A DNA stretch of 64,000 nt from IMG/VR virus record IMGVR_UViG_3300035498_000404, positions 1-64,000 of that record. One strand, 5' to 3'. The translations under genes were made by a program, and so were the position numbers. How positions within the stretch are numbered: position 1 is the stretch's first letter; each line of letters starts with the position of its first letter. The notes beneath the pieces were generated by a model. The model was given only the letters and a program-made list of their open reading frames with translations. It made no database searches and was not told the DNA's origin. Positions 4,188-48,500 of this stretch are shown here, piece by piece. The stretch is from a virus. Its lineage: Duplodnaviria > Caudoviricetes.

Positions 4188-4216
4188 ATTATAGCAAAAA
4201 TTTCGGATTTTGTCAA
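4188..4216 (-). promoter_or_regulatory. sigmaA-type promoter for nrdDG
   Basis: TTGACA-17-TATAAT on the minus strand. Confidence 0.8.
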
Positions 4217-4331
4217 GTGATTTTAAAAAATATTTTTATATTTTTATTATTATTTTAGAAAATCATACAAAATCTATTAAAAATATTCTAAAATATAATA
4301 TTTTGTAGTAAAATTATTCTAAAAAGAACGA

Positions 4332-7272: not shown

Positions 7273-7301
7273 ATTATATCATTTTTAGGCCGATTTGTCA
7301 A
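7273..7301 (-). promoter_or_regulatory. Leftward sigmaA-type promoter
   Basis: TTGACA-17-TATAAT on the minus strand. Confidence 0.75.
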
Positions 7302-7350
7302 GCACTTTTTGCTTTTAGAATAAAAAAAATAAAAAATTTTTAATTTTGAC

Positions 7351-7379
7351 TTGACAAAAATGAAAATTTGTGCTATAAT
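7351..7379 (+). promoter_or_regulatory. Rightward sigmaA-type promoter for the RNA polymerase operon
   Basis: TTGACA-17-TG-C-TATAAT (extended -10). Confidence 0.85.
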
Positions 7380-7714: not shown

Positions 7715-10700
7715 ATCTTTTTTACATACTAAAATTAAACACTTCAAAAATAATTGAAAGTGATTTGTCTGTTGAAACAGACTTTAAGACATCTAAGAAT
7801 TCAGGAGAAATTGTTGCTTTAGGAGATAATCAAATTCTAAAGTTCATAAGAAAGATTAAAGAAGTAGATTATAGTCCTGATATTATAAAAGATTTATATA
7901 CTAAAAGAAATGAACTTAAACGACAAGAAAAATGTGATACCCAAGAGATAATCAAAGTACAAAATCTTATTAATAAAACTTTATTTGTACCAGATTTACT
8001 TATTGTAAAAACTGATACTACTAAAAAAGATTATAAGTATATTTGTAAAAATGGTTTTTCTGTAAAAATTTCAATTGATGATGTTGTTTATGATATAAAA
8101 TATAAAAGACTTTGTGCTGGTGCTGGTCAACTTAGAAGAAATTCGGCATTTTTTGTGAACGAAGAATTATATGATAGACTTGAACAGATTATGATGTGTG
8201 GACTTACCAAGTCTAAAATTGGCAAAATTAATCTAGCAAAGTTTAGTGCTTATTTTTCTCTTTATGGGTCAGCCACTAACCAAGTGTCTACTCCAAATAT
8301 TTGTGTTGTAAAAGACTTTGAATATCCTCTAAAAGACCAGAAAGTTGACTGGGTATATACTAATGAGGATGGCGATATTGACATCGAAGAAAGAAACATT
8401 GATTTTAATATGAATGCTTTTGACGGCGCTGGCATGATTAGTCCTACTATGGCCGCTATATGGCAATCTGATTTAGGATTGGATTATCTTCCTTCGTCTT
8501 TTATTATTCGCGCCCCATTTATTAAAGGTCTTGTTTCTGTCTTTGATTTTCATAAATTTGCCAAAGAAGTTGCTCATAAAGATACTATTACAGATTTATA
8601 TGGAGAAGAATGGGAAATTGATAAAATTGATGTAATATTAACATCAAGTCAATTTAAAATGTACAAAAAATACGAAAGTTGGAATAAATACGTTTTTTAT
8701 TTTAGAAAATATGGGCATAGATTTGGAGTTGCCAGAGTTAATAAAAAAGAGAGCGACTTTGTTACACCATTAAATTATCAATATATTCAAAGTAATAATT
8801 TTACAGAAGAATCCATTAAACAGTTGGCGCAACCAACAGTTGAATGGATTGACAATGTTCTAAAATGTGACCCTTTATATGCTTCCTTACTTTTAGTAGG
8901 TTGTCATGAAGATAAAACCATTGAAGAAATAGAGAATAGCACAGAATCAGTTTTTGGCAAATGTTTGTTGTATAATTTGGATATTCTAAATGATGATTAC
9001 AATAGGAAAAAAGTTAGAGATATAGCACAAAAGAAAATTGACCAAGCTAAAATTGGCAAACTCTATGTTGAGGGGTCTTATGATTTTGTAATACCTGATT
9101 TATATGCAATGGCTGAACACGCATTTGGAATGGAAGTAAAGGGGCTTCTACCAGCCAAATGTATGTATTCCAGACGTTGGGTCGAAAAGGGCGCTACTAG
9201 GGTTTCTACTCAACGTAGTCCGCTTGTTGCTCCTGCTGAAAATCAAGTAATGAACATTTATTGTGATGATAAATGTAAAGAATGGTTTAAATATATTGTT
9301 TGGGGCAATATATATAGTATTTGGGATTTATCAATAATATCGCAATCAGACGCTAGAAATAGTTGGCGTCTCTAAATTGGGCAAAATCGGTGAAGCCTAA
9401 GTTATTAATAATATGGTAATACCGAGGTAATTTAATAGATTACGAATAGGCTATTAAATACCGTAACGCATAGGTGGTGAATAAATATAATCCACCCACG
9501 AGTGTCTGACAATTCTTTTTTAGAATTGAAAATATATGCTGGGCTTATAGGAAACTATAAGAATTTTGAGATAAAAAGCTCAAAAGACAACAAAAACTGG
9601 ACTTTGACGGTAAATTATATTGCCGTGATTAAACCTCTCTAACTGCGGGAAACTCTTTAGAGGTGAATATACCAAGGCATAATAGTAATATATATGTTGG
9701 CAAATCTAATTAATTTGGTATGGTAAAAAGTATTCACATTAGACAATCCGCAACCAAATATCCTTTTAGGATAGAGGCTCAACGACCATCCAGAAATGGA
9801 GTAGGATAAAAGTTTATCCGAAATGGGAGGCGCTATAAAGCGAAGATATGGTCTATTCTTATATGAGAATATAAGTTGTTTTTAAACAAACAGAGTCAGA
9901 TTAACGACCTGACTAACTATAAAGGATATAGTCCTAACTACTGATAATAAATATTTAATAGACGCTATTAATGAAACATTGCCAGTTATTACTTATGAAA
10001 AGACGAAAGTAAAAGAACAGCGGTTGAATTTTAATAGTTTTCCGACTTGGGATGTAAAAAGTTTTGATAGTCCAATTGGAGGAATTACTAATATAGCCAG
10101 TAATTTATATGCTATGTTGGCTAATTTTGAAGAAGGAACAAGAGAATATGAAGAAATCTCAAAAAGAATAAAAATTATGAGGCTGTTTCAAGGAAATTAA
10201 CATTGTAGTTTCGGTATATAGTAATATATATATAAATAAATTCGGTGAACTCAGAAATCTGAGGTGTGCAGATAAAACTGTGCTAACAGGGAAAATCTAA
10301 ACGGAAACCGCATGATAACCCTGTGCCAAATCAAAATAGTGATATTTTGAAAGGTGCAACGACTAAGACATACATTCTATTTTAGAATATGAAGTCTGTA
10401 CTATTACGGTGCAAATCCGTATAGGAAGTGCCGAACATCCTATTTATTAGGATGAAGATATAGTCTAATCCCTAATATAAATAAGTGGAAACACTGGGTA
10501 TAAATGGCAATAGATGATAAGTTGCCTTTAGCAGTAATGTTAAAGTAAAATTCGGTGAACCTACAAATGTAGGGTGTGCGTATATTACGTGCTAACAGAG
10601 AAAGTCTAAGTAGTTTTATATGATAACTCTGTGCCAAGCAAGAATAGTGATATTCTTGACGGTGAAACGAGCAGAACATACGTTCTTATCTTTTAGAATA

Positions 10701-13681: not shown

Positions 13682-13709
13682 ATTTCTTCAAAAAAATTTT
13701 AAAAAGTGC

Positions 13710-13738
13710 TTGACAAATAGAAATGTTTGTGATATAAT
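13710..13738 (+). promoter_or_regulatory. sigmaA-type promoter for HU and the tRNA cluster
   Basis: TTGACA-17-TG-A-TATAAT. Confidence 0.85.
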
Positions 13739-18119: not shown

Positions 18120-21100
18120 GAAAAGCCACAAAGTTTATATTAGAAGAAGAAAAAAAGTAAATATGTCAAAGACAAAGCGGTTTATGGACAACCTTGAAGC
18201 GTGGACAGCTTATTGGAGAAGCAATCCCCATAGATTTGCAACTGATTATTTAGGATTTAGACTGTATGATTTCCAGAAAGTCCTTTTATATCAAATGTTC
18301 GCACATCCTAGTTTTGTATACGTGGCCTCGCGGGGTCTCGCCAAATCAACGCTTGCCTTGATATTTGCTACTATATATTGTATTTTATATCCGGGAACTA
18401 CAATTGTTATTGTTGCTCCCACTAGAGGACAGTCAACTAGATTTGTTAAGAATATTCAAAATCTAGCTCGTGGCCGTCCTAATATAATGTCTGAAATTAA
18501 ATCAGTTAAAACTGGTTTAAATGAAAGTCGAATAGACTTCTGGAATGATTCGGCTATTGTAACGCTTCCGTACAGTGAAAATGCTCTCGGTGAATAACAG
18601 TATTTATTACTAAAACGCCGCTATCAATGGTAACATTGGTATGATAATTGCAGTAAAAAACTGGAAACCTGAAATGGTAATCAGAGGTGAAGATAATTCT
18701 AAGAATTATCAGCCGCAACGCATAGATGGTGAAAAGATATAATCCATCCAAGAGACTGCAACTGCCAAATATTTGGTAGAAAAGATATGCTGAACTAATG
18801 AGAAAAAAATCATTAGAATTATAGGATAAAAAGCCTATAAGATAACAAATTGGTTAGAGCCAATATTCTTATAGTTGACGAATTCGTTCGTACCGAAAAG
18901 GAAGTTATAAGCCGTGTATTCGTTCCTATGCTTTCTTCTCCTAGAAGCCCAGATTATACTGATTTAACTTCTAAAGAAAGAGAGGCATTACCAGAAGAAC
19001 CAAATAGACAATTATATTTGTCCTCTATTAGAGGCGCAGATGAATGGTCTTATGCCAAGTTCTTACAATATATAGACGAAATGACCAATGGCAATACAGA
19101 ATATACAACTGTTGCTTTACCTTATAATATAGGTGTAAAAAACAGATATATTTCTCGTGCTATTGTTCAACAGTCTTTTAAAGAAAATCAAGATTCTCTT
19201 GAAATGCTATACGCAGAATATACGTGTAGACCAGAGAGAGGTTTAAACAATTCTTTCTACCGTTATGCTGTATTGCAGGAACGGAGAGAAGAAGCTCGTG
19301 CTATGGTGGCTATGAGCGATTTTGAATATTTACAATACAAAGGCGATAAATCTAAGTTTCCATTTTACCAAGAAAAATTGCCGAATGAAATTAGAATTTT
19401 AGCAATGGACGTTGCCTTGGTAGAATCCGCAAAGAACGATTGTAATGTTAGTAATAACATACACAGTCCGCTGCATTTAGAAATTATGCAGTGTATTTCT
19501 CTGAACTGCTGGAAACCCCTTATAGCTTGTATGCTACAACATACGAATGAAAAATGTCGAAGTGTGAATGCTTAAAAAATTACAGGATTGGGAAATCAGC
19601 AACTAAGCCCCGAATAGGGGAAAGCTCAACGACCAATAGTTGAAATACTTATAGGGCAAGTGCCCGAAGTGGAGAACACCTAAGTGTAATTTGTTTTAAG
19701 GTAAATTATATATGGTGAATGATATGGTCTATGCTTATATGAAAATATAAGAAAAATTATTCATGATACAAATAAAAGATAAGGACACTGGAGTAGCTGC
19801 CTTTTTAATGCCCCTAACATTAAATTACTTATCTTTTATTTTTTTATATATATTACACCGTTAGGGAGGTGAGAATATATGATAGTTGGATTTAAAATGG
19901 AAATCCATCCAAATGGATTTCAACAAGAAATATTAAGAGAATATTGCAAAACATATCATAATATGTGGAATTTTTTAGTTGCAAAATATAAAGATAACTT
20001 ACCAGTTGTAAGCAAATATGGAATAAAAGATTTCGATACGAACGATTTAATAAATGAATTTGGGAGTGCTATACCAAAAAGAATCGTTTTGGGTGTTATA
20101 AAAGAATATTCCAGAGCAGTACAAATGGCATATAATAAAGTCGTAAACAGACCTAAGTTTCATAAATACAATCCGAATAAACAATCATTCTACATTGCCA
20201 GCATGACTTATTCTGTAACAAATGGCCGTGCTGTAATCCCATCTTTAGGAAGAGGACGGGAGAATATGTCGTACAGAATTCCATTAGACATAGAATATCT
20301 AAATAAATATAATATCAAAGAAATTATAGAGCCAAGATTTACTTTTTATAAAGGTAAATGGTATATTTCTGGCAGTTATAAAAAATAGGATGTTCAAAAA
20401 TCTAATAAAGAATTTATAGGGCTTGATTGGGGTATAAAAAATTTTATGACTAGTTCTAATGGCGACTTAATAAATTATCCAAATAATGTAACTAGAGAAT
20501 ATTACCGAATAAGAAAAATACAATCACTTCTGGATAAGAAAAAAAGAAAATCTAACAACTACAACAAATTATATAAAAAACTCTGTAACGCATATATAAG
20601 ATTAGAAAACTTAAAAAATGATTTTATAGAAAAAGAAACCACATCTCTATGTAAAAATAATAGCATTGGAGTTGAAGATTTGGAAAACTTAATGCAGTCC
20701 AACAAAATTATAAGAAGACAGAATTTTATATGTCCAAGAAAAAGATTTGTAGACGCATTAATGTGGAAATGTGAAAAATTTGGAAGTTATTTTGTTGTTG
20801 TTAATCCGGCTTATACCTCTCAAAAATGTTGTATATGTGGCAAAATACATAAATTAACATTAAGAGATAGAATAATGATTTGTGATTGTGGTAATATTAT
20901 TGACCGTGATATTAATGCCGCTATTAATATTAAAAATGACGCAATTGCGTCAGTGGGTATTTGTTGTACCTATTAAAAGTCCATAACATGGATAATTCTT
21001 TATATATTTAACGAATGTATAAAGTAATAAAACAGAATACGGCGTTTTGGGTTTTGCGTTTAATTCCTAATGGAAATAAGTATAAAAAGATATTTGCTTA

Positions 21101-22028
21101 TGCAGAGAGTATGAATGGTATTAATTCATTACTACAAACCCTGAGAGCAAAGCAATTGTTTTATGAATTTGACTGCGACTATTTTGTAATAGACGGTGGT
21201 GGCGTAGAAACTGCGCTCCTATTTGGTGACAAATAGGTGATAAATGGGTGTAAAAAACTGGAATTCTGAGAGGAAAATCAGAGCGGAAGTTTGTATTTAA
21301 AAGTATAAACACGCACAACGCATACGAATTGAACCTCGTGAAGAGAATATAATATTCGCAAGAGACACCCACTTCTTTTAGAATAAGAAGAAAAGATATG
21401 CTGAACTTACAGGAATACAACTGTAAGAATTGTGGGATAAAAAGCCCACAAGATAACAAAAGTTGTCGGGAGATTTAAAAAATCTCCCGATTTCTATTGA
21501 GGACAAGGAATTGTAGATATTAGCACTGTTGAGACAGAAGACCCAGTTCGTGGGGAAATTTATCCGGCGTGGACTGTTGCTAATTCTGATGACCTTAAAA
21601 ATATTCATAGAACAATTTCTGAAAATGCTGTACCAATTATGGTGTCTGTTAAAACGGGCATTGCAGATAAAAGTAGAATGCTAGTGCATTCTCGTGATGA
21701 AATGGCAACTAATAATATTTCTTTGCTTGTAGATATGCAAGATGGAATAGATTACTTAAATCAGAACTTTGACTTCTATAAAGTTTCTGATTAGGATTTA
21801 AGAAACAGAGTTTTAGCTCCTTATGCTCAAACTTCTGCTTTTATGAACGAAGCTATTAACTTGAAACAAGTTAGCGTTCAGGGTAGAATTAGTGCAGAAG
21901 AAAAATCAGGCAGACGTAAAGACCGCGTTATGAGCTTGGTTTATGCGCTAGATTATGCCAAATAGCTTGAAGATGGATTAAGTGTCCAGCAGAATAATAG
22001 CTGGGAAGATTATATATTTTTCTCATAA
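18112..22028 (+). CDS. terL: Terminase large subunit, 4 exons: 18112-18591, 18853-19440, 21036-21205, 21500-22028; TAG at 21792 and 21963; about 588 aa
   Basis: Walker A ASRGLAKS; splicing restores ALG|VRANILIVDE, MDVAL..SAKND|NTAF and IDGGGV|GQGIVD; C-terminal RKDRVMSL. Confidence 0.92.
18592..18852 (+). mobile_element. Group I intron TerL-I1 (no ORF)
   Basis: P1 CGGU/GCCG; P7 GCAUA/UAUGC; ends in G; same family as RNAP-I1 and TerL-I3. Confidence 0.88.
19441..21035 (+). mobile_element. Group I intron TerL-I2 carrying tnpB (IStron-like, no transposase)
   Basis: P1 GAU-UGU/ACA-GUC; AACUGCUGGAAAC and AAUCAGCAAC core; P7 GACCA/UGGUC; ORF lies downstream of P7'; ends AACAG. Confidence 0.88.
19879..20976 (+). 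CDS. tnpB: TnpB RNA-guided endonuclease (365 aa via TAG 20386-20388)
   Basis: Readthrough joins the two ORFs in frame and supplies RuvC-I IGLDWGIK; RuvC-II IGVEDL; zinc finger TSQKCCICG..CDCG; RuvC-III DRDINAAINI. Confidence 0.9.
21206..21499 (+). mobile_element. Group I intron TerL-I3 (no ORF)
   Basis: P1 GCGU/GCGC; P7 GCAUA/UAUGC; ends in G. Confidence 0.88.
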
Positions 22029-39564: not shown

Positions 39565-42500
39565 ATGGCTGAAAGTATAATATTTAATATAGGTATTGGT
39601 ATTGACGATACTGAAGTAAGACAGGATTTAACAGAAGTTACAAAACAAATACAAGAAGTTTTAAATACAGATTTAAAATTTAATATTAACGCGAATAATA
39701 TTGAGGAATTACAACAGCAAGTAGCTAATCTTGGCGGGCAATTAAATATAGTAAGAGACTCTGTAACTGGTCTTGCCACTGGATTTTCTGTAACGGCAAC
39801 CTCTATAACTGGGCAACTTGTAAATGTGGCTGGTAGTTTTTCAAATTTAAAAACTAGCGCTGATTCATATGTGGCATCTTTAAGTAGTATGCACGACCAA
39901 ATTTCAGGTCAAACAGGGGAACAAAAGGCAATAGCTCAAATTCAATAGGAGTATATTAGTTTATTACAAAAAGAAACTGACATTAAAGAAAAACTAGCTG
40001 TTGCAGTTCAAAATCAAGACACTCAACAAGTAAGTTCTTTGGCAAATCAGCTTGATAAAACTTAGACGTTAATGAACTATGATGCAGAACGACTACAACA
40101 AATACAGGGTATGTCAAATGCTGCAACTACTTTTAACGGTGTTTATGAGCAGATATTTGCAACCACATAGCAATTAGCTAACAGAAATAATGATGCAGAT
40201 GCGTTTTTAGGAACTGATGCTTCTCAAAGAATAATTGATGTTTCTACTAATCTTTCCCAGTTAGATAATACATTACAAGAATATTATTCTCTAAATCAAC
40301 AAGTTTAGAATACTGCTCCGGGAGAATATTGGGATTTATTAGACGCAAAATTAAAACAATTGCAACCAGAATATGATGCTGTTAAAACCAGTATGGAATC
40401 TTTGGGTGTTGTGTTTGCGAATGGTCAGGCTCAATATACTGGGACAGCAGAAGCAGTTCAACAATTAGTTGAAAGATATAATGAGTTAGAGCAACAACAA
40501 AAGGAAAACCAAGCTTAGAAAAATCAAGCTGCTACATATAAAGAAATTACAGATGCGGTTAAGGCTTATTATAAAGCGCTAACTGACGTTAAGAAATCTA
40601 ATAGCGTAGAAGGCTCTGAAACATACAAAGTATTACAGCAAAATTTAACCGCTGCTGCCAATGCTACTGTAACACTTAATGGGAAAACAACTCAATTACA
40701 AGATGTATTTTCTGCTCTTGGTATTACTATATCAAATTATGGTTCAAACTTTACTGCTGCATACAGTGGTAAAAGCCAAGAAATCCAAAAGATTGTTGAT
40801 TTAATTAATCAACAAAGTCAGGCTTACGCCAAGCTTAATGCTCAAAAAGCAGACCAAGCTTCTGATACTGCATTAATTGAAAGTGCCGTAGCGGCATATA
40901 AAAAGTATAGAGACCAATTAGATGTTGTTTATAAATTAAAGAAAAGTGGGAACACTGACTTTACAAGCAACCTAAAAGAAGAAGAAGAACTCTTAAAGCA
41001 GCTTAAAACTGCGTATGAACAAGAAGAACAAGCTCTTCTTAGTAACGGTCAAGAAGTACAGAAAAATACAACTTATAACCGTGATAAAAACCAAGTAACT
41101 AGAGACTCTATTCAGGCTCAAAAAGAGTTTGATTTAAGTTTAAATACAAATTCGCTACAAAATGCTATTGCCTAGACACTACAATACACTATTAGCTTGC
41201 AGGGCTTAAAGACTGCAATTAAAGAAGTTATAGATACAACTCTTGATTTGAACGAATCAATGACGCAAATTCAGCTTGTTACCCAACAAAATAATGATGA
41301 TGCTAAAGAATTAATTCAATCTTATTCAGAATTAGCTAAAAGTTTGGGTACTACAACTGCTGATATAGCTTCTGCAAGCGTTGAGTGGCTTTTTATTAGG
41401 TCACTATAAATCCATTTAACTGCGGGAAACCCCTTAGAGATTAACATACTAAAGGACGATAGAAATATACGTTCTGGCGAGAATAATTACCTCGGTATAG
41501 TAAAAACTGTTAATATTGGGCAATCCGCAACCAAGCCTCTAAAATAGAGGAAGGTTCATCGACTATCCCTTGGTTTCTAAAACGAAACAATAGGAGTACG
41601 GCCAATCGTTAAGGTGGGTGAAAATCCCTTAAATGGAAATGATGGATATTTTAAAGATATTTTAAAATTACTTGACAAAAAGTAATTTTTGTGATATAAT
41701 AGAATAAAGATATAGTCAATACTATGTAGAAATATATAGAAAATTCTGTTTACAGAATCTTTTGAAAAGTAACGATTTTCAGAAGTAATATAATAGACGG
41801 CAGGGCAACAGTATTGAGGAAACTAATGACTTAATTCAAGCGTCTGCAACGCTACAAGTCATTGGTAATATGGAAGCGTCGGATTCCGTAACAGCATTAA
41901 CAGCTTGATTTAGGCTGGGCATATAGTAATATATGCAATAATAAATTCTTTTAACTGCGGGAAACCTCTTAGAGATTAACATACTAAAATATAATAGGGA
42001 TATTATATTGGCGAGAATAATTACCTCGGTATAGTAAAAATTGTTAATATTGGACAATCCGCAACTAAGCACCAAGAACTGGTGAAAGCTCAACGACCAT
42101 CCCATAGGTTCTTTTCAGAACAACAGGAGTACGGCCAATCGTTAAGGTGGGTGAAAATCCCTTAAATGGAAATGGAGAATATCCTACTCTTAGGATAAAG
42201 ATATGGTCTTTTCTTATTAGAAATAATAAGGTGTTTATAAACACATATAAGATTAACGACCTTGTATAAAAATTAAAGGCTATCAACGGCTATGGATTAG
42301 AAGCTTCCGACGCAATGCAGATAGTAGACCAATTAACTACACTAGATTTGAAGTTTGCAGCTTCTTCCGGTGATATAGCGACAGCTCAACTATTAAGGGC
42401 TGGGTGTGCAGTAATGTACATAATAATAAATTCTTTTAACTGCGGGAACTTCCTTAGAGATTAACATACTAAAATATGATAGGAATATACATATTGGCGA

Positions 42501-45500
42501 GAATAATTACCTCGGTATAGTAAAAATTGTTAATATTGGACAATCCGCAACTAAGCACCAAGAACTGGTGAAAGCTCAACGACCATCCCATAGGTTCTTT
42601 TCAGAACAACAGGAGTACGGCCAATCGTTAAGGTGGGTGAAAATCCCTTAAATGGAAATGGAGAATATCCTAAAAATAATTATAAAAGACTTGACAAAAA
42701 GAAATAAATATGATATAATTACTGTTATAGGATAAAGATATGGTCTTTTCTTATTAGAAATAATAAGGTGTTTGTTTGTATTATGGAGATGAAAATGATT
42801 ATTTCAAAATTTGTAAATATAAGAATGGTTAGTCAAAATATTAAATATTATAGAGATTTGGGGTATGAATTTAATAACGGTGAAACAATTCCTATCAAAA
42901 TTGAAGATATTGGAAATGGAAATCGAGCATCCGTAAAGGTTAAATGTGACTATTGTGGGGATGAATATGAAGCACAATATGCAAATATTATGAATGGCAG
43001 AAAGATTTTAAACAAAGACGCTTGCAAGAAATGTGGGCATAAAAAGAGAGAAGAAATTTTGTTGCTTTTATACGGAGTAAAAAATCCTATGCAGTTGCAG
43101 GAAATAAAAAATAGGCAACAAGATTCATTGGAAGCTCATTACGGAGTGAGAGTTCCGGCAAAAAATAAAGATATTTCAAAAAAACAAGCAGAATCTTTTA
43201 AAAAATCTTATGGTATTGGTAGTGATGGATATGACGAGTATCAGACCAAACGAAGAAAAACCTGTATTGATAAATATAGCGTTGACAATGCCTCGAAATT
43301 AGAAGAATTTAAAGATAAAGCTGCGAAAACTTGTTTGGAAAAATATGGTGTAGAGCATCCATGTCAAAATCCAGACATTATGGAGAAATTTATAGAAACT
43401 TGCAATGAAAAATATGGTGTTGATTATTATTTGCTGACAAAGGATAAACAAATAAAAACCACAAAAACCTGTATGGATAAATATGGAGCAATAAATATTT
43501 CAAAAACTGATTATTGGAAAGAAAAGGTAAATAATTCAGTTATGGAAAGATATGGTACAAAATGGGTCGGAGAATCAAAAGAAATTCAAGATAAAATAAA
43601 GAAAACGAATATGGAAAGATATGGCGTTGAGTGCGTCTTTTCGTTGGAAGAAATTCGTTTAAAGTCAAGAAAAACTATGCTTGAAAAATATGGTTCAATA
43701 ATGCCCCAATGCGTTAGTTCTCAACAAAATTATATTCATAGTATATATGGTGGAGAATTAAATAAACAAATTGGAAAATATGTTGCTGACATTTTATTTA
43801 CAGATGAACGTATTGATTTTGAATATGACGGTGGAGGACACGATTTAAGTATTAGGCTTGGAGCTATATCTGAAAATAATTTTATAGACAAAGAAACAAT
43901 CAGGAATAATTATTTTATAAAAAATGGTTATAAAATTTTTAGAATTATTTCCAAAAAAGATAGATTACCAAACGATTCAATCCTTATCGAAATAAAAAAT
44001 AAAGCTTTTGAAGTTTTATTAAATACAGAAAATAATATTTATACTTATAATATAGATAATAACACAGAAGAATACAAACAAATCAATGTGGAATAACGAC
44101 CCACATTAAAAATTTATACTTTCTAAAGTTGCATCTGTGGCCTCACAATCCGGTGTTTCACTGGAAAAACTAGAATCAATTCTGGTTGTCACAGAAGACC
44201 AAACACAGCAATCGGCAGACACCATTAACAAAACAGTGGTGTATAAATCAATTCTAATATTTATGCGAAAATCCAGAGATGGACAACGCTTCGGAAGGTA
44301 AATTACCGCCGACAACGACTGAATGAATTGACCAAATTTATTTTGGATGCAACAGTCTGAACACATAATATAATCGAACAATGAAATATGTGAATAGGAG
44401 TCATTGGTAATCAGACCAATTAAAGAAGAACTTCTATCGCCTACTATAAAGTAGGTCACAAAAGTAACAGAATGTGGTAATGCTAAATGTTCTTGGCATG
44501 GCACATAGTAATATGTGCAATAATTAATCCCTTTAATTGCGGGAAACCCCTTAGAGATTAACATACTAAAATATAATAGGAATATTATATTGGCGAAAGT
44601 AACTATTTCGGTATAGTAAAAATTGTTAATATTGGGCAATCCGCAGCTAAGTGTTCAGAACGGACAAAAGTTCATCGACTATCCAATAGCTTTCAAATAA
44701 GCAACAGGAGTACGGCCAATTGTTTAGGTGAGTGAGAATCTCTTAAATGGAAATGGGGGACATCCTATTATTTAGGATGAAGATATAGTCAAAACTTGTT
44801 AGAAATAATAAGAACTTATATTAAAAATATAAATCATTGAAAGAATCTTATTTTTAATATAGGTTGCATAAAAATAACGAACTTATGTTAATTAATTGTG
44901 GAACAGTATTTTTGCCAGAATGTCGAAAATTGCTGCTGGTAAAGACCTTGAAGACACCGAGGTAACGCTAAATGATGTCGATAAGGTCTTAACCAAAATG
45001 AATATTAGTCTAAAGGATGAACAGGGTCAAATTCGTGACCTTGACGATGTTCTTGACGAAGTTGCAGGTCGTTGGGACACCTTTACGACAAATGAAAAGA
45101 ACCAAATTAGTACGGCTATCGCGGGCACACGACAAGCCAACTATTTTAAGGCCGCAATGGCCGACTGGGGAGAAGTTCTTGACGGTACGCAAATTGCATT
45201 AGACGCAAATGGTACGGCCACAGAGCGTATGGGTATTTATACCGAATCCCTAGGAGGTAAAATTAAGACCTTAAAGGCTACTTGGGAAGAATTTGTAGCC
45301 GATTTAAATTTGGACGATGTTATCTCTAATGTAATTAGTACAGCACAAAATCTATTAGAGATTTTTGATACTATAATAAATAAAAGCGGTGTTTTAAGTA
45401 CCGTAATTAAAGGAGTTCTTGTTGCACAAGGACTAAATATTTTATCTGGCGCTGTTGTAAAGGTTCTTGGTACACTAACTGGTAGTGGTGGATTATTAAG

Positions 45501-48500
45501 CGGCCTTATTAAACTTGCTCAGATAGCCCCTGAACTTTCTGAATTTGCAAGTTCTATAAATAGCGTCGCTGACGCACAAACTGCTTGGGCTTTAATTACT
45601 GGTGACGGTATTTTAAAAATAATCCCAAATATACTCACTCTACTTGGTGGTTCTGGTGGTCTTGTTGCTATTCTTGGAACTCTTGCTGGTACTATTGCGA
45701 TTGTGGTTGCGGCAGTTGCCGCATTTAAATATGCTTGGGAAAATTGGTTGCCTACGCAAGCAAATGCAAATCGGCAACTAGAAGAAGCACAAGAAGAATT
45801 AGAGAATACCTAGTCAGAACTTAATGATGTAATATCAAAATTAGAAGATGTTCAATCTCAAATTGATGATTTAAATAGTAAAGATACTTTATCTATTACA
45901 GATAAAGAGCAATTAGATATATTAAAGAAGCAAAGTGAAGAACTTGAAATACAAAAGTCTACACTTGAAGAAATGGAAAGAATCAAGCAGCAAGGCGTTC
46001 TTGATGCCAATATAAATAATCAAAATACCAAGAGTAATTTGTTTAGCTTTAACTTAGAAGATGGCCTAACAATAAATACTGCATATAACAAGAGCTTAGA
46101 AGAGCTTATATCTACATATAAGACATTGCAGATTGTTGTTGATAAAACTGGCGATTCACTTGGAACTTTTGAGATTTATGGTGATGAATTACAAGACAGA
46201 TACGATAAAGCTAATGCGACCATAAATCAATATCTCCAAATGGAGCAATCTGGTTTATTAACCACTAAGTATTATACTCAAGCCCAACTTGATTCTTACC
46301 AAGAAGCTTATGATAACGCTATTAATATTCGTAATTAGATTCTTGAAATTTTAAATCCTGAACAATTTAAGAAGCTTAAAATTGAAGAAGCTCTTGACAC
46401 AAGTGGTTTCAAGGGTATTGAAACAACAATTAACAACTTAAATATTAAGTTAAAAAATGGCGAAACAACATTTGAAGAATATTCCGAAGCTGTTCGTGCG
46501 GCATTAACAAAATTAGCACAAAACGACGATTTTAAGAATCTTCTTGGTGATATATTTACAGAAGATGAATTAAATGACACAGAAGCTCTCGTAGAAGAAC
46601 TTGTTGGGTATCTTGATGTACAAACTAATGCTATTGTTGATGATGTCACTGATGCCCAAAATGAAATTGTCGAATCTTTTGAGGGCTATGCCGACGGAAT
46701 TAAAGAAGTAGAATCTTCTTATGAAACACTAAAAGATGCAGTAGACAGTTATAATAGTAGTGGTACTATTACAGCTAAACAACTAGAAGAATTGTTGGCA
46801 CTTGACCAAGATTATTTAAATACTTTAAGTTATGAAAATGGTCAAATTAAGATAAATGGAGAAGCTATTAGTTCTTTAAAAGAAGAACAATTAGCTCTTT
46901 ATAAACAACAACTTCTTACCGCTGCTTCTGCTGAAATTTTGGCTCGTGCGCAAGAAGTAAACAATCAAATAGAAGAGGATTCTATTACTGATGCTTATGA
47001 GCTAAGAGAAGCCAATTTCCAATTAAAAAATGGGCATATTGAAGCCGCAACAGGTGCTTCTGTGCAAGCGGTTGCCGAAGCAGATTTACAGACGCAATTA
47101 ACTGGTGTTGCTGCTAGTGCTGGACTTACAACTGAGGCAATTCAAGACATTATAGATAAATATACTGCTCTATATGCTTTAGGAGAAAATGTATCTGGTT
47201 CTGGTTCTTCTTCTAGTAGTAGTTCAACTAACGCTGCTAAAACTGCTTATGAAAATGAAAAAGCCAGATATGAACTGCTTGAAAAAGAAGTAGAATTAGA
47301 GAAAGACAAATTAGAAGCCCAAAAAGATGGAGTGAAAGCAGAAGAAACTCTGCTTAAAAATAAAAAATCCGAATTAGAGCTTCAAAAACAAATCAAAGAA
47401 CAACAACTTGACACTATACAAGATTCCGAGGAAGATATTACTGATTTAATTGAGTATGTCGAAAAGATGCTTAAACAACAGTACGAAGACCTCAAAACGA
47501 ATCTTAAAAAGGTAAAAGAGTATGTTACTACTTGGCGTGACGCATTGTCTGATGCAAAAGATAGTTATGACGATATTACGGCTGCTATCGAGAAGCAAAT
47601 GAAAGCTCAAAAAGAGCAAAATGACAATGAAAAGGCTCTAAAAGAAAAAGCGGATGCTGTTTCTGACGTTCAGGAACAATTGGCTGCTATTCAGTATGAT
47701 ACTTCTTCTGATGCTGCTACTAAGCGCGTCGAGTTACTAAAAGAACTTAATGATGCACAAGAGGCACTGACAGAAGAAGCACAAGACCAAGCATATGATT
47801 CTGCTCTCGACCAATTAGACGCTGCTCAACAAAAAATTGATGATATTTTCGACTTTATTGACGAAGCGTTGGAAGACGCAGAAGATGCTATTGACGATTA
47901 CGTTGACTATATTTCTAATACTTTAGAATCTGAAGGCAATCTGTATAAAGAGGCGTTGGCAGAAGTTCAATCTGCAATTGACGGTAACAATGACGAATTA
48001 TTGCAAAAGCTTTATAAGTGGAACAGCGCGAAATGAATGCGCTGTATAAATCGGGTTATATGCTGGAACACCCTAAAGACTTTAATACTAAAAAGTAAAA
48101 ATTTAAAGTATGTTACAATGGGCAATCAGCAGGGAAGATAAGTTCACCCTCAACGACTATGGGAATATCCCACTAATATATAAGTAATTATATATTAGAA
48201 CCCCGATAAGGCATAAGCCGAATGATATAGTCTGAACTTCCATAGAAATATGGAGAATTGGGCAGAAATGACCCAATATTTTTGTGTTAGTATTTTAAAA
48301 ACAAAACCAATTTTATTTTTTAGTATGACACAAAAATTAACAAAATTGATATGGAGACAACATTGCTGAAACCATTACAAAAGCTTGGAATGATGCTCTT
48401 GACGCTGTTGAAAAATACAAAGATGCAACTGGTGAAACTAATCTGCAAAATATCCGTGAAGGATTACAAATGCAGGATACCACTCTTAGTGCAGAAATTG

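What the first reader, a model, noticed from the sequence alone, without database searches (positions are those of the whole stretch)
41391..44898. One intron family has multiplied within the TMP gene at ...GCT| sites
Seen: I1, I2, I3 and I5 share long blocks (CTTAGAGATTAACATACTAAA; GGTATAGTAAAAA.TGTTAATATTGG.CAATCCGCA; GGAGTACGGCCAAT; CTTAAATGGAAATG). I2 and I3 are almost identical over about 200 nt and both insert after ACAGCT with guide GGCTG. I1 and I5 follow TGGCT and ATGCT, with guides matched to those exons. Only I3 carries an endonuclease. Inference: this looks like intragenic spread by reverse splicing or ectopic transposition rather than classical single-site homing. RNAP I3/I4 and RNAP-I1/TerL-I1/TerL-I3 form similar sibling sets.
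Basis: partly seen in the sequence, partly recalled or inferred. Interest (0 to 1): 0.75.

Follow-up and report, generated by a model that had tools for sequence, protein, structure and literature searches.

The report
Related self-splicing introns crowding a tail gene
Four closely related self-splicing (group I) introns sit within about 330 coding bases of one gut-phage tail-length gene, and a sister strain lacks two of them, giving a clear but not unprecedented record of how such introns copy, recombine and spread.

Summary
The four sequence blocks occur once in each of I1, I2, I3 and I5 and nowhere else in the 103-kb genome. All four are Rfam group I introns with paired guides and many compensatory base changes.

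I2 and I3 both follow ACAGCT and both use guide GGCTG. They are 94% identical overall and about 100% identical over the 3' 230 nt of the core. Only I3 carries an endonuclease gene, which has its own promoter.

- **New sites:** I2, I3 and I5 share a P2 hairpin. No other phage I could fetch has an intron at their sites, so copying to new GCT| sites in this lineage is the best reading.
- **I1 is different:** its site is also occupied in two distant phages, whose introns share its guide and its lack of P2.
- **Mosaic family:** I2 is I5-like at its 5' end and I3-identical at its 3' end, so the copies recombine.
- **Recombination between genomes:** a sister strain, 98-100% identical nearby, lacks I1, I2 and the endonuclease gene. 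Substitutions cluster beside the polymorphic sites, as in exon co-conversion.

Reverse splicing fits the data but is not shown. Bacillus cereus prophage TMP-IVS1/IVS2 and Twort orf142 are precedents, and this scan has noted similar intron families on other DNA. One puzzle remains: I3 has no G at the 3' position needed for full-length in-frame ligation.

The parts
39565..41390 (+). Tape measure gene exon 1. It holds six in-frame TAG codons, so TAG is read as a sense codon. It ends GAGTGGCT|.
   Evidence: Every in-frame stop in the tape measure frame is TAG. The exon end is fixed by the intron-free allele in L001.
41391..41796 (+). I1, a group I intron with no P2 hairpin and no ORF. Its guide GGTCAC pairs with GTGGCT, and it ends in G.
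   Evidence: Rfam 70 bits. It is absent from L001 with an exact junction. Same-site relatives exist in L015 and L025 intron B.
41671..41700 (+). Sigma-70-type promoter copy (CTTGACAAA-N12-TGATATAAT) in the P8 loop of I1, with no ORF behind it.
   Evidence: The motif has 6 exact copies in the window against 0.04 expected by chance. The copies have relatives at intergenic sites across the genome.
41797..41905 (+). Exon 2 (109 nt), ending ACAGCT|.
   Evidence: It is collinear with L001 and with the intron-free relatives.
41906..42278 (+). I2, a group I intron with no ORF. Its guide GGCTG pairs with CAGCT, and it ends AAAG. It is a mosaic: the 5' third is I5-like and the core is identical to I3.
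   Evidence: Rfam 62 bits. It is absent from L001 with an exact junction.
42279..42386 (+). Exon 3 (108 nt, 36 codons, starting and ending on codon boundaries), ending ACAGCT|.
42387..44118 (+). I3, a group I intron carrying an endonuclease gene. It has the same guide GGCTG as I2. The 3' end given is the one that restores the conserved reading frame, but base 44118 is A. The alternatives are G44128 and G44139.
   Evidence: Rfam 58.7 bits. L001 has the same intron with the ORF body and the promoter insert deleted. The frame argument rests.
42690..42719 (+). Promoter copy in the P8 loop of I3, upstream of the endonuclease ORF. It is absent from the I3 of L001.
42783..44096 (+). Homing-endonuclease ORF of I3 (437 aa from the first ATG), with no in-frame TAG.
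   Evidence: Pfam DUF7487, E 3e-43. PHROG 12131 and 3339, both named 'homing endonuclease'. Distant phage homologues, 40% identity or less, are annotated as homing endonuclease or zinc-ribbon protein. No PDB sequence match.
44119..44225 (+). Exon 4 (LSKVASVASQSG...ADT-I), ending ACACCAT|.
   Evidence: It matches LSRVASSASAAG in the intron-free relatives with no gap. Its 3' end is fixed by the RNA-library contig.
44226..44474 (+). I4, an unrelated and divergent group I-like intron. Its P1 pairs GTGGTGT with ACACCAT, its P7 is GACTG/CAGTC, and it ends in G. It is not part of the family.
   Evidence: The RNA-library contig shows it removed exactly. No RF00028 hit even in a 300-nt search. No similarity to the family.
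44475..44484 (+). Exon 5, a 10-nt micro-exon (TGGTAATGCT).
   Evidence: Present between the two joints in the RNA-library contig (table 5c). Fits the GNA residues of the relatives.
44485..44898 (+). I5, a group I intron with no ORF. Its guide GGCAT pairs with ATGCT, and it ends in G.
   Evidence: Rfam 69.4 bits. Removed in the RNA-library contig. Identical in L001.
44899..47989 (+). Exon 6, starting TGGAAC. A further Rfam group I match begins at about 47990.
   Evidence: This exon matches the C-terminal end of Pfam PF10145.

Best explanation
One lineage of ORF-less and endonuclease-bearing group I introns has colonised several ...GCU| positions in the conserved PhageMin_Tail core of this phage's tape measure gene.

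I1 occupies an older homing site that distant phages also use. I2, I3 and I5, the subfamily with a P2 hairpin, are copies that reached new sites within this phage lineage. Each keeps, or has adjusted by two bases, a guide that pairs with its own 5' exon. After copying, the paralogues kept exchanging sequence by intron-to-intron gene conversion. This explains the identical I2/I3 core, the I5-like 5' third of I2 and the I3-like 3' part of I1.

Today the introns and the I3 endonuclease gene move between co-circulating strains by homologous, homing-type recombination, which drags neighbouring exon bases along.

Shown: family membership, exact junctions, structural covariation, strain polymorphism, mosaicism and clustered flank substitutions.

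Inferred: the direction of copying and the mechanism of the ectopic step. For that step I lean modestly towards guide-directed integration (reverse splicing, reverse transcription, then recombination), at about 45% against 35% for an endonuclease break followed by illegitimate repair. My reason is that I2 and I3 share only the five or six bases that pair with the guide.
For: **One family.** The four diagnostic blocks are unique to these four introns. Identity within the set is 74-94%, against 70% or less for other introns of the genome. A narrow core pattern finds only this phage clade in IMG/VR, plus one further phage in the metagenome contigs.

**Functional ribozymes.** 34 of 62 predicted pairs show compensatory changes across the family. 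P2, P3, P6 and P7 covary among the four introns. An RNA-library contig shows I4 and I5 removed exactly.

**New sites.** L003, L015, L025 and L026-L030 have uninterrupted sequence at the I2, I3, I4 and I5 sites. Family copy number is 4 in the window, 2 in L001, 1 in L015, at least 2 in L025 and 0 in L026 and L003. Two of the only three ACAGCT hexamers in about 5.25 kb of spliced gene are occupied.

**I1 site is shared.**

**Mosaicism.**

**Homing-type exchange.** L001 is 98-100% identical over 40400-46700, yet it lacks I1, I2, the promoter insert and the ORF body of I3, and it has an extra intron at 44971. The 44 substitutions cluster at -12/+1/+10 of the I1 site, -15/-14/-12/-4 of the I2 site and -14/-11 of the extra intron's site.
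Against: - No intermediate or donor for the ectopic step was found, and sequence alone cannot separate RNA-level from DNA-level transposition.
- Because the family is mosaic, trees are unreliable. The AU test does not reject a clade of the four window introns (p 0.16) but does not prove one either. Its rejection of a same-site clade for I1 (p 0.008) conflicts with the evidence from I1's 5' third.
- Flank clusters could equally mark intron loss in L001, or resistant target variants. At the I2 site it is L001, not the window, that departs from the L026-type sequence.
- I2 is known from this one assembly only; neither public run covered it.
- The collections are sparse for this clade, so 'no same-site intron elsewhere' is weak negative evidence.
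Confidence: 0.7

Rival explanations
1. There was no intragenic copying. Each intron arrived separately by ordinary site-specific homing from other phages that carried an intron at that same site. The present similarity would then be due to common family membership plus later gene conversion between neighbours (concerted evolution).
For: I1 has same-site relatives in L015 and L025 with the same guide and architecture. Co-conversion-like tracts flank I1 and I2. The family is demonstrably mosaic, so conversion does homogenise copies. Sampling of this phage clade is thin.
Against: No intron was found at the I2, I3 or I5 sites in any other lineage. In L026-L030 the bases before the I3 and I5 sites end in A, not the U that a group I 5' splice site needs. 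I2, I3 and I5 share a P2 hairpin with a GTAAT loop that the I1-site introns lack. I2 and I3 share both guide and target hexamer.
Confidence: 0.2
2. The ectopic copies arose at the DNA level. The I3-type endonuclease, or another phage nuclease, cut a look-alike site, and the break was repaired from the resident intron copy 0.5-2 kb away in the same gene. Only insertions whose guide could pair with the new exon survived.
For: An endonuclease with its own promoter is present in I3. I1 keeps an orphan copy of the same promoter, which hints at a lost ORF. The copies lie very close together, which favours repair from a nearby template. Recombination between copies is evident. The review PMC3984707 lists relaxed endonuclease specificity as a recognised route.
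Against: The sites share only ACAGCT (I2/I3) or GCT (all four), with no extended similarity on either side. That is far less than the roughly 14-40 bp homing endonucleases usually read (general knowledge, not tested here). No exon homology exists between sites to guide repair.
Confidence: 0.35
3. The I2/I3 near-identity is an assembly artefact: a repeat collapse or a chimeric join.
For: I2 is seen in one assembly only. The two public runs gave no cover of 41806-42409. A 230-nt stretch identical between two copies 480 nt apart is the kind of repeat that short-read assemblers can homogenise.
Against: I2 has a unique 5' 105 nt (87% identical to I3, 92% to I5), a unique tail and a guide matching its own exon. 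It ends in G exactly where the L001 allele rejoins in frame. An artefact would not create this.
Confidence: 0.03

Closest known systems
TMP-IVS1 and TMP-IVS2 group I introns in tape measure genes of Bacillus cereus-group prophages (Tourasse & Kolsto 2008, PMC2504315; read)
   Same: Related IA2-type introns at different sites of a phage tape measure gene. The P3-P7 core (90-92% identical) is more conserved than P1, P2, P8 and P9, and P1 is adapted to each site. Most copies lack an endonuclease gene. Homologous introns carry unrelated endonucleases, as do I3 here and L025 intron B.
   Different: Here there are four family copies in one gene of one genome, within about 330 coding nt. Two of them have the identical guide and target hexamer and an identical core. 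A near-identical sister strain lacks two copies. The host phage reads TAG as a sense codon. I did not test whether the insertion sites coincide.
Staphylococcus phage Twort orf142 (tail tube) introns 2 and 3 (Landthaler & Shub 1999, as summarised in PMC10136302 and PMC11878797)
   Same: [quoted passage not shown] Exon skipping was observed there.
   Different: Here there are four similar introns plus an unrelated one and a 10-nt exon. Strain polymorphism and mosaicism are documented. Exon skipping was not tested.
Related group I introns at heterologous rDNA sites, attributed to reverse splicing (Bhattacharya et al. 2005, PMC1299323; review PMC3984707)
   Same: Sister introns at different sites of one gene, whose targets share only the few bases that pair with the guide. 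This is circumstantial evidence for RNA-guided ectopic integration.
   Different: The present case is a protein-coding gene of a DNA phage. Flank substitutions point to DNA-level co-conversion during later spread. No reverse transcriptase was looked for.
Phage T4 td/nrdB/nrdD introns with endonuclease genes expressed from their own promoters, and exon co-conversion during homing (general knowledge; Mueller et al. 1996 is cited in PMC2504315)
   Same: The endonuclease ORF sits in a peripheral loop with its own promoter. Presence or absence varies among close relatives. Flanking exon markers are co-converted.
   Different: The endonuclease family differs: DUF7487 rather than GIY-YIG or HNH. Cleavage was not tested.

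Membership tests
Group I self-splicing introns (Rfam RF00028) | Conserved core (P3-P9) matching the covariance model | tested here: met
   In the whole-window scan I1 scored 70 bits, I2 62, I3 58.7 and I5 69.4, all above the 50-bit gathering score. In the narrower rescan of 41300-45000 I5 scored 48.5 bits, just below that cut-off. I4 was not detected.
Group I self-splicing introns (Rfam RF00028) | P1: the guide pairs with the 5' exon, with a U.G wobble at the splice site | tested here: met
   Read directly from the sequence. I1: GTGGCU with GGUCAC. I2 and I3: CAGCU with GGCUG. I5: AUGCU with GGCAU. Junctions are proven for I1 and I2 and for I5.
Group I self-splicing introns (Rfam RF00028) | Terminal guanosine (omega-G) at the 3' splice site | tested here: inconclusive
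   Met for I1 (G41796), I2 (G42278), I4 (G44474) and I5 (G44898). For I3, the base before the frame-restoring exon start is A44118 in both strains.
Group I self-splicing introns (Rfam RF00028) | Structure kept by compensatory changes | tested here: met
   34 of 62 predicted pairs have changes on both sides with the pair kept, among 9 family members.
Group I self-splicing introns (Rfam RF00028) | Actual splicing | tested here: inconclusive
   An RNA-library contig lacks I4 and I5 exactly, while the same library also holds I4-internal and endonuclease-gene sequence. The tool warns that DNA may be present in such a library. Nothing covers the I1, I2 or I3 junctions.
Subgroup IA2 (typical phage introns) | IA2-specific peripheral elements (P7.1/P7.2 and others) | not tested
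   There is only sequence similarity, about 73-77%, to introns of Vibrio phage VCO139/JA-1, crAss-like phage cr127_1 and SPO1-like Bacillus phages. No subgroup-specific model was run.
Homing endonuclease (DUF7487-type) | Family profile match and location inside an intron | tested here: met
   PF24308, E 3e-43. PHROG 12131 and 3339. The ORF lies after P9 of I3, behind a promoter copy.
Homing endonuclease (DUF7487-type) | Site-specific cleavage of the intron-free allele | not testable with these tools
   This needs a cleavage assay. A C-terminal FEYDGGGHD motif looks Vsr/EDxHD-like by eye only. There is no PDB sequence match.
Mobility by reverse splicing | Ectopic copies share only the bases that pair with the guide, and the flanking exons are unchanged | tested here: inconclusive
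   The first half is met for I2/I3, which share only ACAGCT. The second half is not: substitutions cluster beside the I1 and I2 sites. These may, however, date from later homing rather than from the original insertion.

The most novel reading that the evidence does not exclude
I3 may be a natural group I intron that ligates exons without a terminal G, or one that has lost its omega-G and now uses other 3' sites. In the second case the phage would make tape measure variants lacking 3 or 7 residues (7 is one heptad). Because I2 and I3 have identical guides and cores and flank an in-frame 108-nt exon, exon 3 could also be skipped, as happens in Twort orf142. Intron splicing would then set the amount or the length of the tail-length ruler, rather than being neutral.
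Probability: 0.15. Interest if true: 0.75.

Novelty: new member of a known kind. Interest (0 to 1): 0.45.

Why it matters
How group I introns reach new sites is still unsettled. The 2014 review read here says there is no direct evidence for the reverse-splicing route, and that the best circumstantial cases are related rDNA introns at two sites (PMC3984707).

This locus puts three stages side by side in one small stretch of a protein gene:
- an old shared homing site (I1);
- copies at new sites, with either an identical guide (I2/I3) or a guide changed by two bases (I5);
- ongoing exchange, both between copies and between strains.

Empty and filled alleles exist in strains that are otherwise 98-100% identical. 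That makes the locus a convenient natural system for testing guide-directed against nuclease-directed transposition. It also shows how densely a TAG-recoded gut phage tolerates introns in an essential structural gene. It does not reveal a new kind of element.

Tried and rejected
- **Trees of the family** were poorly resolved. Mosaicism later undermined them, so I do not rest the case on them.
- **Rfam scan of outgroup loci** missed most pattern-defined relatives. I used an nhmmer profile of my own instead.
- **Public runs.** Only two runs held small shares of the stretch. No contig covered I2 or the exon 3/exon 4 junction, so nothing can be said from them about I1, I2 or I3 splicing. The freshwater run held only a diverged relative of the I4-I5 region.
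- **The look-up of encoding contigs was closed.** The DNA around the intron-free ENA protein P0003 and the Logan members of the cluster could therefore not be fetched. L026-L030 served as intron-free references instead.
- **Landthaler & Shub 1999** (PMC22036) is not held.
- **A first promoter pattern** had the wrong spacing and found nothing. It was corrected.
- **Splice-site enumeration.** I listed every U|...G| pair that keeps the frame around I3. None gives the full-length product, and only 42386|44139 keeps the canonical P1.
- **Endonuclease comparison.** The I3 and L025-B endonucleases are unrelated.
- **Not attempted:** structure prediction and complex prediction, because no claim here depends on them.

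Full report
**Setting**

The window is the first 64 kb of a 102,894-bp IMG/VR virus record that is about 97% complete. The finding lies in a very long tape measure gene that starts at 39565. All eight in-frame stops of this gene are TAG, so the phage reads TAG as a sense codon. The introns interrupt the gene's conserved core. The exon after I5 matches the C-terminal end of Pfam PhageMin_Tail.

Rfam finds four group I introns at the stated places.

- I2 against I3 is 94.2% over 275 nt plus 100% over 46 nt.
- I1 and I5 are 79-83% identical to I2/I3 over 244-338 nt.
- No other intron pair of this genome exceeds about 77%, and then only over shorter stretches.
- Nine family members give a consensus structure in which 34 of 62 pairs carry compensatory changes.
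- Among the four window copies, P2, P3, P6 and P7 covary (GACTA/TAGTC in I1 and I5; GACCA/TGGTC in I2 and I3). These are working ribozymes, not decaying repeats.

**Exact anatomy**

A sister strain, L001 (IMGVR_UViG_3300035521_000126), is collinear with the window but lacks I1 and I2. This fixes both introns: I1 is 41391-41796 and I2 is 41906-42278.

A contig from a gut metatranscriptome library joins 44189-44226, GGTAATGCT and 44899-45215. This fixes I4 (44226-44474), a 10-nt exon (44475-44484) and I5 (44485-44898). The same library also holds I4-internal and endonuclease-gene sequence. Splicing is therefore the likelier reading, but an intron-free strain is not excluded.

With these junctions the spliced core aligns without a gap to the uninterrupted tape measure proteins of five other phages (L026-L030) and of P0003.

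Only I3 carries an ORF (42783-44096). It matches DUF7487 and PHROG homing-endonuclease families, and has distant homologues in many phages.

I1 and I3 each carry, in the P8 loop, an exact copy of a promoter motif. The motif has six exact copies in the window against 0.04 expected. In I3 it sits just upstream of the ORF. In I1 nothing follows it, which suggests a lost ORF.

**Where else the family occurs**

- A narrow core pattern found only this phage clade in IMG/VR, plus one further phage in the metagenome contigs (L025).
- A looser pattern found 18 viral stretches, most sharing only the 5' half of the core.
- The nearest full-length outsiders are three: the intron of L015, a complete 96-kb phage; the two introns of L025; and an intron in this genome's RNA polymerase gene. 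Vibrio phage VCO139 and the crAss-like phage cr127_1 are further out.

L015's intron and L025's intron B sit at exactly the I1 site (GA(G/A)TGGCT|, EWL|RQG). Like I1, they have no P2 hairpin and the guide TTAGGTCAYTATAAAT. None of L003, L015, L025 or L026-L030 has an intron at the I2, I3, I4 or I5 sites.

Family copy number is 4 in the window, 2 in L001, 1 in L015, at least 2 in L025 and 0 in L003 and L026. L025's two copies lie five codons apart and share a promoter-bearing insert in P6. The same kind of local multiplication has therefore happened in a second phage.

**Mosaic structure**

Segment by segment:

| Segment (I2 numbering) | Comparison | Identity |
|---|---|---|
| 21-105 | I2 with I5 | 92% |
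| 21-105 | I2 with I3 | 87% |
| 21-105 | I1 with same-site L015 | 82% |
| 21-105 | I1 with its neighbours | 73-74% |
| 106-335 | I2 with I3 | 98-100% |
| 106-335 | I1 with I3 | 80% |
| 106-335 | I1 with L015 | 70% |

The L001 copy of I3 has two private changes in the region where I2 and the window's I3 are identical. The copies therefore exchange sequence.

This also explains why whole-length trees are unresolved. It explains too why an AU test rejects a same-site clade for I1 (p 0.008) although I1's 5' third is plainly of the same-site type. I give the trees little weight.

**Exchange between strains**

Over 40400-46700 the window and L001 are 98-100% identical, yet they differ in four ways:
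- presence of I1;
- presence of I2;
- the 49-nt promoter insert and a clean deletion of the I3 ORF body, of which L001 keeps the first ~28 and last ~40 nt;
- a 288-nt unrelated intron that only L001 has, at 44971.

The 44 substitutions are not spread evenly. Three flank the I1 site (-12, +1, +10), four flank the I2 site (-15, -14, -12, -4) and two flank the 44971 site (-14, -11). By contrast, 1.7 kb downstream holds only two. This is the pattern left by exon co-conversion during homing-type repair. As PMC2504315 notes, reverse splicing would not leave it.

At the I2 site it is L001 that departs from the sequence seen in L026-type relatives. The tract may therefore mark intron loss, or a resistant target, rather than gain.

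**Most likely history**

The I1 site is old and shared. From a resident family member, copies reached further GCU| positions in this lineage. I2 and I3 still have the same guide and the same hexamer, and two of the three ACAGCT hexamers in about 5.25 kb of spliced gene are occupied. I5's guide differs by two bases. Conversion between copies followed, and spread among strains is by homologous recombination.

For the ectopic step the flanks of I2 and I3 share only ACAGCT. That fits guide-directed integration better than recognition by a protein, but this is inference. An endonuclease is present, the copies are close enough to serve as repair templates, and no experiment here separates the routes.

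**Unexplained**

Every intron-free relative keeps seven residues (LSRVASS, FQYSASF, MQYVASS or LQKTANM) that match window 44119-44139 (LSKVASV). Full-length ligation therefore needs exon 4 to start at 44119.

- The base before that is A in both strains, and there is no G from 44099 to 44127.
- G44128 sits in the same AAAG context as I2's proven end, but is out of frame with the canonical 5' site.
- G44139 is in frame and would delete one heptad. In L001 it is A, a change that is synonymous if the base is exonic.
- The P7 guanosine-binding pair is the same as in I2.

No RNA contig covers this junction.

**Comparison with what is known**

Related IA2 introns at different sites of a prophage tape measure gene, with a conserved core and site-adapted P1, were described for the Bacillus cereus group (PMC2504315). 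Twort orf142 has two highly similar introns 23 nt apart.

This scan has also noted related-intron families crowding single phage genes on other DNA. I did not test those notes.

The present case is a rich new instance rather than a new kind. It combines four copies, an identical guide at two sites, documented mosaicism and a sister strain with empty sites.

Noticed in passing
window 44099-44139 (also L001 5201-5241): I3 has no G at the position that restores the conserved reading frame: 44118 is A. The nearest G residues give a frameshift (44128) or a 7-residue deletion (44139, which is A in L001).
   Followed up: partly
window 44226-44484: I4 is a 249-nt intron unrelated to the family and invisible to Rfam RF00028. 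It has a 7-bp P1 and a GACTG/CAGTC P7. A 10-nt exon follows it. An RNA-library contig shows both I4 and I5 removed.
   Followed up: partly
L001 6072-6359 (window position 44971): The sister strain has a 288-nt group I intron of another family, inserted after AACGCT|, that the window lacks. L003 and L015 are also interrupted near this position in their tape measure genes.
   Followed up: partly
L025 1343-3196: A third phage (ERZ1643246 NODE-94, 114 kb) has two family introns five codons apart in its tape measure gene. Both carry the same promoter-like insert in P6. Intron B holds a 327-aa endonuclease unrelated to that of I3.
   Followed up: partly
window 4188-4217, 7273-7302, 7350-7379, 13709-13738, 41671-41700, 42690-42719: There are six exact copies of CTTGACAAA-N12-TGNTATAAT (expected 0.04). 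Four lie at intergenic sites and two lie inside introns I1 and I3.
   Followed up: yes
window 39597-40397 and 46770-47370: The tape measure gene is itself mosaic between strains. Its N-terminal part is only 70-78% identical to L001 and a C-terminal block is 92-94% identical, while the rest is 98-100%.
   Followed up: no
window 42279-42386: Exon 3 is 108 nt, starts and ends on codon boundaries, and is flanked by two introns with identical guides and cores. Skipping it would therefore be in frame, as with exon skipping in Twort orf142.
   Followed up: no
window 10300-10618, 18343-18853, 21207-21500 (L005, L007): Other genes also differ in intron content between strains. Window stretches 18592-18853 and 21207-21500 are absent from L005. 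L005 has about 254 extra nt at 18343. L005 and L007 have about 900 extra nt near 10300-10618.
   Followed up: no
   Followed up: partly
window 39946-46336: Eight in-frame TAG codons, and no TAA or TGA, lie inside the tape measure frame. The I3 endonuclease ORF has none. ARAGORN found no suppressor tRNA among the window's four tRNA genes.
   Followed up: partly
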